From: an uncultured Saprospirales bacterium | GTDB taxonomy: Bacteria > Bacteroidota > Bacteroidia > Chitinophagales > JADIYW01 | NCBI GenBank assembly: GCA_938008535.1 | Contig: CALLKF010000164.1 | Span: 10,202-74,201 of the forward strand | Reading direction: 5' to 3' | Length of the DNA stretch: 64,000 bases | Shown: piece by piece, positions 62,054-64,000 of the stretch | Numbering within the stretch: the first letter of the stretch is position 1 | Layout of the letters: every line of letters begins with the position of its first letter | Made by a program: the position numbers and the translations under genes | Notes under the pieces: generated by a model | Told to the model about the DNA's origin: nothing | The model's input: only the letters and a program-made list of their open reading frames with translations | Databases searched by the model: none

Positions 62054-63536
62054 ATGAAGAAGCTGTTCACCATTTTATGTTTATGTTTAATATTAAACAC
62101 ACAGGCTGCCGACAAAGACCGCTATTTTGAGATTGCCAAAAATATGGAATTATTTACGCAACTCTACAAAGAATTGAACACGTATTACGTTGATGATATT
62201 GATCCAAATAAATTAATGACAGATGGTATCAATAAAATGTTGGATGGTTTAGATCCGTTTACCAATTATATTACTGGCGCCGATTTGGATGAATATCAAT
62301 TACAAACTACTGGTAAATATGGTGGTATTGGCGCACGTATCTCAAAAATTGGCGACTATGTTTTTATTACTGATCCATATGAAGGATTTCCTGCACAAAA
62401 AGCTGGTTTAGAAGCTGGTGATGCCATTTTAGAAATTGATGGAAAGGTAGCTACGAAATATAATTCAGATGAAGTAAGCCAATTATTAAAAGGTGAACCT
62501 GGTACAAAAATTACTGTAAAAGTGCGTAAGGCAATTAGTAATCAAGAAAAGACAATTGTATTTAATCGCGAAGAAATAAAAATTAGCAACGTTCCATATT
62601 TTGGTATGGTAAACAATAATGTTGGATATATAAAGCTCGACATGTTTGCAGATGATGCATCTGTTGAAGTACAAAATGCATTGAAAGAATTAAAGAAAAA
62701 CCCAAATTTAAAAAGTGTAATCTTGGATTTACGTGGAAATGGTGGTGGTTTACTAAACGAAGCAATCAATATCTGCAATACTTTTGTGGACAAAGGCACC
62801 AACATTGTAAATACAAAAGGAAAAATTGCAGAATCTAACATGAATTACACTACAACTGGTAAACCAATCGACACAGAAATTCCTTTAGCAATACTTACTG
62901 ACGGCGGCTCTGCTTCTGCATCCGAAATTGTTTCTGGTTCTATGCAAGATTTAGACAGAGGCATCGTAATTGGACAAAATACATACGGCAAAGGATTGGT
63001 TCAAATTACCAAACCAGTTGCTTATAAATCGAAATTAAAAGTAACAGTCTCTAAATATTATATTCCAAGTGGAAGATGTATTCAACGAATTGATTATTCG
63101 CACCGAAGTGCAAATGGTGTTGCCAGTGCATTAGCTGATTCTTTACGACAAACTTTCAAAACTAAAAATGGTAGAATTGTGAAAGATGGCGCAGGCATTG
63201 AACCAGATATTAAAACAGTTGATGAAAAAATAGCACCAATTACCATTGCATTATACAATAATAATCATGTCTTCGATTTCGCCAACAAATACAAATACAA
63301 TCACAAAGAATTAAGAGATGGTGCAAAATTTACTATGAACGATGAAGAATATACTGCATTTACAGATTTTATAAAAGGCAAAGAATATGAGTATACAACA
63401 GCAACAGAAAATGAATTGGCTGCTCTAAAAAAATCAACCAAAGATGATGAACTTTCTGAAGATGTAAATAAAGCAATTACCGATTTAGAAACTAAAATAA
63501 AACACGATAAAAGCAAAGACATCATCAAATACAAAT
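62054..63536 (+). CDS. S41-family C-terminal processing peptidase, 3' end cut off by the junction near 63536
   Basis: Absent from the track because the ORF stays open to the window end. My translation is [18 protein letters not shown]..., with a PDZ domain ([20 protein letters not shown]). The catalytic Ser/Lys contexts are [14 protein letters not shown] and TYGKGLVQ. Confidence 0.8.
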
Positions 63537-64000
63537 CGAGACCCAATTCCTGCAAAGACAAACTGGGCAGGCTGAGGGTTGCCGCTGCTGTGGGGGTTAC
63601 ACCTGATATGCTCGACAGGGTTAGTGCTTTGGTAAATGCCGGAGTTGATGCCATTGTGATTGACACAGCACACGGGCACTCGAAAGGCGTGCTGAATGCG
63701 CTTACGCAAACCAAAAAAACATTCCCCGACCTCGACATCGTGGTTGGAAACATTGCCACCGCGGCAGCAGCAAAAGCACTGGTGAAAGCCGGCGCCGATG
63801 CAGTAAAAGTTGGCATCGGACCAGGTTCGATTTGTACTACCAGGGTGGTTGCAGGTGTTGGGGTGCCCCAGTTGACGGCGGTAATGGAAGTCGCTGCAGC
63901 ACTTAAAGGCACAGGCGTACCCGTAATTGCCGACGGAGGAATCAGATTCACAGGTGATGTTCCCAAGGCAATAGCAGCAGGAGCACATTGTATTATGGCC
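63537..64000 (+). CDS. guaB: Internal fragment of IMP dehydrogenase (starts mid-gene at the junction, continues beyond the window)
   Basis: Translation is [19 protein letters not shown]...[12 protein letters not shown]...[20 protein letters not shown]...[13 protein letters not shown]+C is much higher than in the rest of the window. Confidence 0.85.

What the first reader, a model, noticed from the sequence alone, without database searches (positions are those of the whole stretch)
63480..64000. Abrupt break at ~63536: AT-rich S41 peptidase ORF reads in frame into the middle of a G+C-rich IMP dehydrogenase gene
The S41 peptidase ORF that starts at 62054 reads ...[13 protein letters not shown] and then continues without a stop as [19 protein letters not shown]...IDTAHGHS...[20 protein letters not shown]...IADGGIR. 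The second part is the central catalytic barrel of GuaB, entering at roughly residue 200 of a ~490-aa enzyme.

Composition changes at the same point. I count 17 G+C in 63421-63480 and 35 G+C in 63541-63600. Codon choice shifts to G/C-ending codons. The peptidase lacks its last few dozen residues and guaB lacks its entire N-terminal half.

A functional S41-IMPDH fusion is implausible. This looks like a chimeric join: an assembly or binning artefact, concatenated contigs, or less likely a very recent illegitimate recombination with foreign DNA. Anything annotated across this point would be wrong.
Basis: seen in the sequence. Interest (0 to 1): 0.6.

Follow-up and report, generated by a model that had tools for sequence, protein, structure and literature searches.

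The report
Chimeric assembly join at shared 22-mer
The last 465 bases of this window belong to a different bacterium's IMP dehydrogenase gene, most likely stitched onto a truncated S41 peptidase gene by the assembler at a 22-base sequence that both genes happen to share, so the "fusion" is an artefact and not biology.

Summary
G+C jumps from about 33% to 54% at 63536, and one ORF reads from an S41/PDZ peptidase straight into residue ~202 of a 489-aa IMP dehydrogenase.

I recovered both parents from public assemblies. Eight independent contigs of the AT-rich Saprospirales/Chitinophagales-like organism match the window up to exactly 63535. They then continue with the native 53-residue S41 tail and tsaB. 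Seven independent contigs of a different Bacteroidota bacterium match the window from exactly 63514, and each carries a complete guaB.

The two matches overlap in a 22-nt word, CAAAGACATCATCAAATACAAA (63514-63535). It is native to both genes, sits in the same reading frame (KDIIKYK) and is flanked by mismatches on both sides. None of the 15 contigs has the junction, and no fused protein is on record.

A 22-nt shared word equals two consecutive 21-mers, and 21 is, from my own knowledge, the usual smallest k of metagenome assemblers. A few such words are expected by chance between any two 4-Mb genomes. The most likely cause is an inter-genome chimeric contig made in a k-mer graph (confidence about 0.9). 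Blunt concatenation is disfavoured by the single-copy, in-register overlap. Real recombination cannot be excluded without reads but is unlikely. Interest is low, apart from quality control.

The parts
62054..63535 (+). First 494 codons of a 547-codon S41 (C-terminal processing) peptidase gene with PDZ domain, belonging to the AT-rich host genome of the window. The native last 53 codons and stop are missing.
   Evidence: Pfam PF03572 plus PDZ. It is 99.8% identical (493/494) to full-length 547-aa proteins P0242, P0244 and P0247. Eight relatives' contigs align up to exactly 63535.
63514..63535 (.). Breakpoint interval: the 22-nt word CAAAGACATCATCAAATACAAA. It is identical in the native S41 gene and the native guaB gene, is read in the same frame in both (KDIIKYK), and is flanked by mismatches on both sides.
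   Evidence: Three-way exact block. It is present natively in L002, L004 and L006-L011 and in L003 and L013-L019. The next-longest word shared between the window and L003 is only 17 nt.
63536..64000 (+). Internal fragment (residues 209-363 of 489) of the guaB/IMP dehydrogenase gene of a different Bacteroidota bacterium. It is foreign to the rest of the window.
   Evidence: Pfam PF00478 positions 83-234 of 345. It is 98.6-99.0% identical to seven native guaB contigs, whose alignments begin at exactly 63514. All 7 differences from L003 are synonymous. G+C is 0.54, z = 6.3.
59234..61986 (+). Native upstream context of the host genome: rho (59234-60958), rpmH, rnpA (61470-61727) and yidD (61717-61986). 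It is colinear with relatives and serves as the anchor showing which genome the left side belongs to.
   Evidence: Pfam. The gene order is the same in L001, L006 and L007. L001 is 99.86% identical over 58538-62149.

Best explanation
The junction is an in-silico inter-genome misassembly, a chimeric contig.

Two unrelated bacteria share, by chance, the exact 22-nt word CAAAGACATCATCAAATACAAA. One is an AT-rich Saprospirales/Chitinophagales-like organism, which carries the word near the 3' end of its S41 peptidase gene. The other is a different Bacteroidota/Bacteroidia organism, which carries it at codons 202-208 of guaB. They probably came from the same activated-sludge-type sample.

In a k-mer (de Bruijn) graph with k of 22 or less, such a word merges the paths of the two genomes into an X-shaped node. 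From my own knowledge, k = 21 is the usual smallest k of MEGAHIT and metaSPAdes. The assembler walked in on the S41 branch and out on the guaB branch. Because the word lies in the same reading frame in both genes, the result reads as one open frame.

Shown: both parents exist, the crossover is exact and in register, the junction is absent elsewhere, and shared words of this length are expected by chance. Inferred: that an assembler did the joining, which assembler and which k, and that both organisms were in the same read set.
For: (1) Left parent. Eight independent contigs are colinear with the window at 94.7-98.3% identity: L002 (a long-read MAG contig of 374,864 bp), L004 and L006-L011, from NCBI, JGI and ENA. 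Every alignment ends at exactly 63535. All then continue CCAGAAATAAAACGC..., giving the native tail PEIKRLLEQEIASRYLF...TLTVQK*, followed by tsaB, two HTH genes, CMD and polA.

(2) Right parent. Seven distinct contigs from different runs (L003/L015, L013, L014, L016-L019) are 98.6-99.0% identical from exactly 63514 to the window end. Each holds a complete 489-aa guaB between a CHU_C-domain gene and a rotamase gene.

(3) The two sets of alignments overlap by one copy of an exact 22-nt word with mismatches on either side. That makes two shared 21-mers and no shared 23-mer.

(4) Chance expectation. Under an independent-bases model, two 4-Mb genomes of these compositions share about 16 exact 21-mers and about 4 exact 22-mers. 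One such genome shares about 1000 22-mers with 1 Gb of other community DNA. Graph links of this kind are therefore expected.

(5) No fusion elsewhere. The 120 best hits to the 649-aa chimera are all ~547-aa S41 peptidases covering 76% of it. The 120 best hits to the IMPDH are all ~489 aa without S41 or PDZ domains. All 15 members of the S41 90% cluster have the native tail. Exact look-up of the predicted 775-aa fusion found nothing.

(6) All 7 differences from native guaB are synonymous third-position changes. This is ordinary strain variation in a working gene and not decay of a dead fragment.

(7) Habitat. Two left-parent contigs come from assemblies named 'activated sludge metagenome'. MAG proteins of both parents have NCBI accessions in neighbouring MBK ranges.

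(8) The class is well documented. Inter-genome translocations are the most prevalent misassembly in CAMI benchmarks, and MEGAHIT makes more of them (PMC9661791). Iterative assemblers reuse small-k contigs as hypothetical reads, and shared k-mers link the graphs of different genomes (PMC7299287).
Against: No reads are available, so coverage, read-pair support and read breakpoints at 63514-63535 could not be examined.

The assembler and its k values are unknown.

The host contig is long (at least 63.5 kb), which implies good coverage. A well-covered native path should normally win at larger k, so it is not explained why the native S41 continuation was lost here.

The window ends 465 nt after the join. 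I cannot see whether the sequence stays in the donor genome, as a chimera predicts, or returns to the host, as an insertion would.

My collection scans with a 40-mer were not junction-specific, because the 40-mer began inside the shared word. Absence of the junction in public data therefore rests on 15 loci and on protein searches. It does not rest on a whole-collection DNA scan.
Confidence: 0.9

Rival explanations
1. Blunt concatenation. The window was built by placing two separate contigs end to end (a binning or file-handling artefact), with no assembler decision at the join.
For: The join lies close to the window end, and the composition changes abruptly. Draft MAGs are often handled as concatenated contigs.
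Against: The two parents overlap in register by a single copy of an exact 22-nt word. For an arbitrary end-to-end placement the chance of that is about 4^-22. If both contigs had ended at the same graph branch and been pasted together, the shared word would normally be duplicated, because contigs overlap by k or k-1. They would also have to be adjacent in the right order and orientation. There is no run of N.
Confidence: 0.04
2. Genuine, very recent in-vivo illegitimate (microhomology-mediated) recombination. The AT-rich bacterium took up DNA of the other Bacteroidota organism and joined it at the 22-nt identity, destroying its S41 peptidase gene.
For: From general knowledge, 22 nt of identity is within the range that can support microhomology-mediated or short-homology recombination. 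Both organisms plausibly share a habitat. The unameliorated composition would fit a very recent event.
Against: Zero of 8 related strains, at up to 98.3% identity, have the junction. The event would inactivate a gene that is intact in all 15 cluster members, and it brings in only a non-functional guaB fragment. All 7 differences from native guaB are synonymous, as expected for a gene still living in its own genome. The overlap length matches the commonest minimal assembler k. An artefact has a far higher prior probability in metagenome contigs (PMC9661791).
Confidence: 0.03
3. In-vitro chimera. Template switching during library PCR or whole-genome amplification joined the two molecules at the 22-nt identity, and the assembler faithfully assembled the chimeric fragments.
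For: From general knowledge, incompletely extended strands can prime on another template at short identities, and 22 nt would suffice. The result would also be a single-copy, in-register overlap.
Against: Such chimeras are individually rare molecules. They would have to outnumber the native continuation of a genome covered well enough to give a contig of more than 63 kb. Nothing in the sequence calls for this extra step beyond the k-mer-graph explanation.
Confidence: 0.03
4. A real, functional S41 peptidase-IMPDH fusion protein.
For: Only that the reading frame stays open across the join.
Against: The frame is open simply because the shared word is in the same frame in both parents. The IMPDH part starts at residue 202 and lacks the N-terminal 41% of the enzyme. 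The peptidase lacks its conserved 53-residue tail. No protein combining the two domains appears among 240 best hits. Composition and codon usage switch at the join.
Confidence: 0.003

Closest known systems
Inter-genome translocation misassembly (chimeric contig) of de Bruijn-graph metagenome assemblers, as categorised by MetaQUAST and metaMIC
   Same: The two flanks belong to different genomes. The breakpoint sits on an exact word shared by both. The junction is unsupported by any independent assembly. The class is reported as the most prevalent misassembly type in CAMI benchmarks (PMC9661791). The shared-k-mer mechanism is described in PMC7299287.
   Different: Such joins are usually attributed to conserved or mobile sequences shared by related genomes, such as rRNA, transposases or homologous genes. 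Here the shared word is a chance identity between two non-homologous genes: the S41 tail and the end of the IMPDH CBS region. It is only 22 nt long. Read-level hallmarks could not be checked.
S41 family C-terminal processing peptidase (Ctp/Prc-like, PDZ plus S41 domains) of Chitinophagales/Saprospirales
   Same: The left part is 99.8% identical to full-length 547-aa members and has the same domains and the same upstream neighbours, rho, rpmH, rnpA and yidD.
   Different: In the window the gene lacks its last 53 codons and stop codon, which are replaced by foreign sequence.
GuaB / IMP dehydrogenase (PF00478 barrel with inserted CBS pair) of uncultured Bacteroidia
   Same: The right part is identical at the amino-acid level to residues 209-363 of P0255 and 98.6-99.0% identical in DNA to seven native genes.
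   Different: Only an internal fragment is present. The first 201 residues and the native upstream gene (CHU_C-domain protein) are absent.
Microhomology-mediated or homology-facilitated illegitimate recombination in bacteria
   Same: A crossover within a short stretch of exact identity between otherwise unrelated DNA.
   Different: There is no evidence that it happened in a cell. It is not seen in any related strain, it destroys a conserved gene, and no second junction is visible.

Membership tests
Inter-genome chimeric contig (assembly artefact) | The two sides of the breakpoint belong to different genomes | tested here: met
   The left side is colinear with 8 Saprospirales/Chitinophagales-type contigs. 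The right side is colinear with 7 contigs of another Bacteroidota organism with different neighbours and G+C of 0.42-0.45 versus 0.33. Composition z = 6.3 and tetranucleotide z = 8.1.
Inter-genome chimeric contig (assembly artefact) | Each side continues natively past the breakpoint in independent assemblies | tested here: met
   All 8 relatives show the native S41 tail followed by tsaB. All 7 donor contigs show the native guaB 5' half.
Inter-genome chimeric contig (assembly artefact) | The breakpoint coincides with an exact word, at least as long as the assembler's k, that both parents share | tested here: met
   A 22-nt three-way exact block lies at 63514-63535 with mismatches on both sides. 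That is two 21-mers. The actual k used is unknown.
Inter-genome chimeric contig (assembly artefact) | The junction is not reproduced in independent assemblies | tested here: met
   Zero of 15 loci have it. No fused protein appears in the searches. Caveat: no junction-specific whole-collection DNA scan was run.
Inter-genome chimeric contig (assembly artefact) | Read-level signature: a coverage step, clipped reads, and no spanning pairs at the breakpoint | not testable with these tools
   There is no access to reads or to the source assembly. The 50-200 kb contig counted was not returned.
Natural multidomain fusion protein (S41-IMPDH) | The same domain architecture recurs in other genomes | tested here: not met
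   None of the 120 plus 120 best hits combines S41/PDZ with IMPDH domains.
Natural multidomain fusion protein (S41-IMPDH) | The fused domains are structurally complete | tested here: not met
   IMPDH starts at profile position 83 of 345, which is residue 202 of 489. S41 lacks its 53 C-terminal residues.
Horizontally acquired DNA (in-vivo illegitimate recombination) | The insertion is bounded by two junctions, with host sequence resuming downstream | not testable with these tools
   The window ends 465 nt after the first junction.
Horizontally acquired DNA (in-vivo illegitimate recombination) | The junction is present in the organism's DNA, that is, in related strains or in spanning reads | tested here: not met
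   It is absent from 8 related strains at 94.7-98.3% identity. Reads are not available.
S41 peptidase family (PF03572) | Significant match to the S41 catalytic domain together with a PDZ domain | tested here: met
   PF03572 E 5.8e-46 and PDZ_6 E 7.4e-12.
IMP dehydrogenase (PF00478) | Significant match to the IMPDH barrel | tested here: met
   E 3.7e-67, but only profile positions 83-234 of 345. It is a fragment and not a gene.

The most novel reading that the evidence does not exclude
The join is real. An AT-rich Saprospirales-like bacterium in activated sludge very recently recombined with DNA of another Bacteroidota species at a 22-nt chance identity, knocking out its S41 processing peptidase. 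This would be a snapshot of short-homology illegitimate recombination between distant lineages before any amelioration or purging.
Probability: 0.03. Interest if true: 0.4.

Novelty: not a real feature. Interest (0 to 1): 0.08.

Why it matters
The value is in quality control, not biology. Anything annotated across 63514-63536 would be wrong. That includes a 775-aa "S41 peptidase/IMP dehydrogenase" fusion, a truncated peptidase, a partial guaB, or an apparent horizontal transfer. Whatever follows position 64000 on the source contig probably belongs to another organism and would contaminate a genome bin.

The case is also a clean worked example. A chance 22-nt identity between two non-homologous genes appears to have been enough to produce an inter-genome chimera. 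The breakpoint could be resolved to the base without reads, simply by recovering both parents from independent public assemblies. The contig should be split at 63514-63535.

Tried and rejected
(1) "Junction-spanning" 40-mer scans. The pattern began at 63520, inside the shared word, so it was pure native guaB sequence and not junction-specific. The metagenome hit (L003) turned out to be the native right-hand parent, which was useful. It is not evidence that the junction exists elsewhere, and the genome contigs miss is not evidence that it is absent.

(2) Recovering the window's own source contig, to see beyond position 64000. Look-ups of rho and yidD counted one carrier contig in the 50-200 kb class, but that contig was not returned. 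Only short Logan contigs came back: L001 ends at window 62149 and L005 at 63403, both before the join.

(3) Exact look-up of the predicted 775-aa fusion and of a repaired 547-aa S41. Neither is in the collection.

(4) I guessed that the 287-aa IMPDH cluster member P0263 marked a contig broken at the shared word, because 489 - 202 = 287. That was wrong. It is an N-terminal fragment with a different aberrant tail.

(5) First attempt at the IMPDH search used a wrong frame (one search returned an error). It was redone.

(6) A functional fusion was considered and rejected. Both domains are incomplete, there is no recurrence, and composition switches at the join.

(7) Blunt contig concatenation was considered and disfavoured because of the single-copy, in-register 22-nt overlap.

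(8) Other hidden junctions in the window. G+C and the tetranucleotide scan show none.

Full report
**1. The observation**

- The ORF that starts at ATG 62054 stays open to the end of the window. It reads ...[12 protein letters not shown]|[20 protein letters not shown]....
- Pfam assigns residues 1-494 to Peptidase_S41 (E 5.8e-46) with a PDZ domain. It assigns the last 155 residues to IMPDH PF00478, profile positions 83-234 of 345 (E 3.7e-67).
- The whole window is uniformly about 33% G+C. The last 465 nt are 54.0%, whereas 465-nt windows elsewhere have mean 33.1%, sd 3.3% and maximum 42.8% (z = 6.3).
- GC3 rises from 0.22 to 0.48.
- A tetranucleotide scan gives z = 8.1 for the tail and shows no other outlying segment. 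There is therefore exactly one foreign piece in the window.

**2. Recovering the two parents**

A 36-mer from just left of the step hit one record in the genome collection: a 374,864-bp long-read MAG contig labelled Saprospirales bacterium (JADJSS010000007.1, locus L002). There the S41 gene continues ...KDIIKYKPEIKRLLEQEIASRYLFEKGRIANSLKNDNDVLKAIEVLSDATKYKGTLTVQK* and is followed by a tsaB-like gene.

A 40-mer that I intended to span the junction hit a 14,916-bp metagenome contig (ERZ650309 NODE_815, L003). Reading that contig showed it is not a copy of the junction. It holds a complete, native 489-aa guaB whose CBS region ends ...[25 protein letters not shown].... My 40-mer had begun inside a stretch shared by both genes, so it was not junction-specific. 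This is recorded as a caveat.

**3. The breakpoint, to the base**

An in-register comparison of the window, L002 and L003 shows a three-way identical block of 22 nt, CAAAGACATCATCAAATACAAA, at window 63514-63535.
- To its left the window follows the S41 parent and is unrelated to L003.
- To its right it follows L003 (458 of 465 identical) and is unrelated to L002.
- Gapped BLAST agrees. The L002 alignment ends at exactly 63535 and the L003 alignment starts at exactly 63514.
- The block is read in the same frame in both genes (KDIIKYK). This alone explains why the chimera has no stop codon.
- In guaB the block starts at residue 202 of 489. The S41 gene loses its last 53 of 547 residues.

**4. 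Independent replication on both sides**

Left side. A protein search with the whole 649-aa chimera returned only ordinary ~547-aa S41 peptidases that cover the first 76% of the query. None has an IMPDH domain. All 15 members of the closest 90% cluster end with the native tail, and three are 493/494 identical to the window's S41 part.

Fetching their contigs gave L004 and L006-L011. These come from NCBI MAGs GCA_035910515.1 and GCA_035903315.1, JGI 3300005986, and four ENA assemblies, two of which are named activated-sludge metagenomes. All carry S41(547 aa)-tsaB-HTH-HTH-CMD, the longer ones running on to polA. Where upstream sequence is held they show rpmH-rnpA-yidD, with rho upstream in L006 and L007. 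Together with L002, eight relatives at 94.7-98.3% DNA identity all stop matching the window at exactly 63535.

Right side. The 120 best relatives of the L003 IMPDH are all ~489-aa CBS-plus-IMPDH proteins. Where a source names them, they are labelled Bacteroidia or Bacteroidota. Seven distinct contigs from different runs encode exactly that protein in one constant context: a CHU_C-domain protein, guaB, then a rotamase. All match the window from exactly 63514 at 98.6-99.0% identity, and all contain the 22-mer natively.

The junction is therefore present in 0 of 15 independent loci.

**5. Is a shared 22-mer surprising?**

For this pair of loci, yes. The next-longest shared word between the window and L003 is 17 nt. 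For whole genomes, no. Under an independent-bases model with the observed compositions, two 4-Mb genomes share about 16 exact 21-mers and about 4 exact 22-mers. One genome shares about 1000 22-mers with 1 Gb of other community DNA.

Such chance links are therefore expected in any complex metagenome graph. Conversely, an unrelated end-to-end placement would land on a single-copy, in-register 22-nt overlap with a probability of about 4^-22. The shared word is therefore the cause of the join and not a coincidence.

**6. Mechanism**

Shown: the two parents, the exact crossover interval, the uniqueness of the junction, and the chance availability of such words.

Inferred: the join was made in silico by a k-mer-graph assembler working, at some stage, with k of 22 or less. 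From my own knowledge, k = 21 is the default smallest k of MEGAHIT and metaSPAdes. Two consecutive shared 21-mers create an X-shaped node. If the native exit (the S41 tail) and the native entry (the guaB 5' half) are locally pruned or unresolved, the path from S41-left through the shared word to guaB-right survives. In iterative assemblers it is then carried to larger k as a "hypothetical read" (PMC7299287).

Inter-genome translocations are reported as the most prevalent misassembly type in CAMI benchmarks, and MEGAHIT is reported to make more of them (PMC9661791).

Supporting detail: all 7 differences between the window's guaB fragment and L003 are synonymous third-position changes. That is how strain variants of a working gene look, not a dead fragment.

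The habitat is consistent. Two contigs of the left parent come from assemblies named activated sludge. MAG proteins of both parents have NCBI accessions in neighbouring MBK ranges. This is only suggestive of a shared origin.

**7. Rivals**

- Blunt concatenation of contigs (0.04) is disfavoured by the single-copy, in-register overlap and the absence of any spacer.
- Real in-vivo short-homology recombination (0.03) cannot be excluded without reads. However, it is absent from all eight relatives. It would destroy a gene that is conserved intact in every relative. It brings in only a useless gene fragment. It also happens to use an overlap equal to the commonest assembler minimum k plus one.
- An in-vitro template-switch chimera (0.03) would give the same sequence signature but needs rare molecules to outcompete the native path.
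- A functional fusion (below 0.01) is rejected. Both domains are incomplete, the architecture does not recur, and the composition switches at the join.

**8. Weaknesses**

- I had no reads, no assembler metadata, and no view beyond position 64000.
- The host contig is long, so the host genome was well covered. I cannot say why the native continuation lost out at this node.
- The source contig could not be retrieved. It is probably the 50-200 kb contig counted but not returned.
- An exact look-up of the predicted 775-aa fusion was negative.

**9. Verdict**

It is not a biological feature and is an already well-known kind of artefact. The contig should be split there, and nothing should be annotated across it. 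Interest is low, about 0.08. The only more novel reading, a genuine and very recent illegitimate recombination, has roughly 3% probability.

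Noticed in passing
L012:3040-3340 (JGI 3300059061, contig Ga0574372_12670): A more distant relative of the same guaB is itself aberrant in another public assembly. 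The called protein (P0263, 287 aa) is a normal IMPDH up to about residue 233 (...[12 protein letters not shown]). It then runs into an unrelated tail (GFGIRRSIQRWRGQ...) and stops, and a glycosyltransferase gene follows. This is possibly a second, independent misassembly or a deletion in guaB, at a different position from the one studied here.
   Followed up: partly
window 54621-54702 versus L006:1955-2631: The closely related MAG contig JAMHXJ010000041.1 carries about 680 extra bases here, including a 187-aa ORF with no Pfam hit (L006 2042-2605). The window has only 82 bases at this point. This is a strain-level insertion or deletion between otherwise colinear genomes.
   Followed up: no
L002:1-1023 versus window 60000-61018: In the long-read Saprospirales MAG (JADJSS010000007.1), the gene upstream of rpmH is a 266-aa predicted membrane protein. 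In the window and in L001, L006 and L007 that position is occupied by rho. This is a local synteny difference within the species group.
   Followed up: partly
window 59234-60958: Rho is 574 aa long, and its RNA-binding domain starts only at residue 211. It therefore carries an N-terminal extension of about 200 residues. From my own knowledge, long N-terminal insertions in Rho are typical of Bacteroidota.
   Followed up: no
window 61008-63535 versus L001, L005, L008 and L009: Identity to different public contigs varies along the host part of the window. It is 99.86% to a Logan contig over 58538-62149, but only 97.6-98.3% to others over the S41 gene. Several co-existing strains of this organism are therefore circulating in the sampled habitats. 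That kind of strain diversity fragments assembly graphs.
   Followed up: no
window 32668-32741: The only RNA gene detected in the 64-kb window is a tRNA-Lys (TTT). Rfam found nothing else at gathering thresholds.
   Followed up: yes
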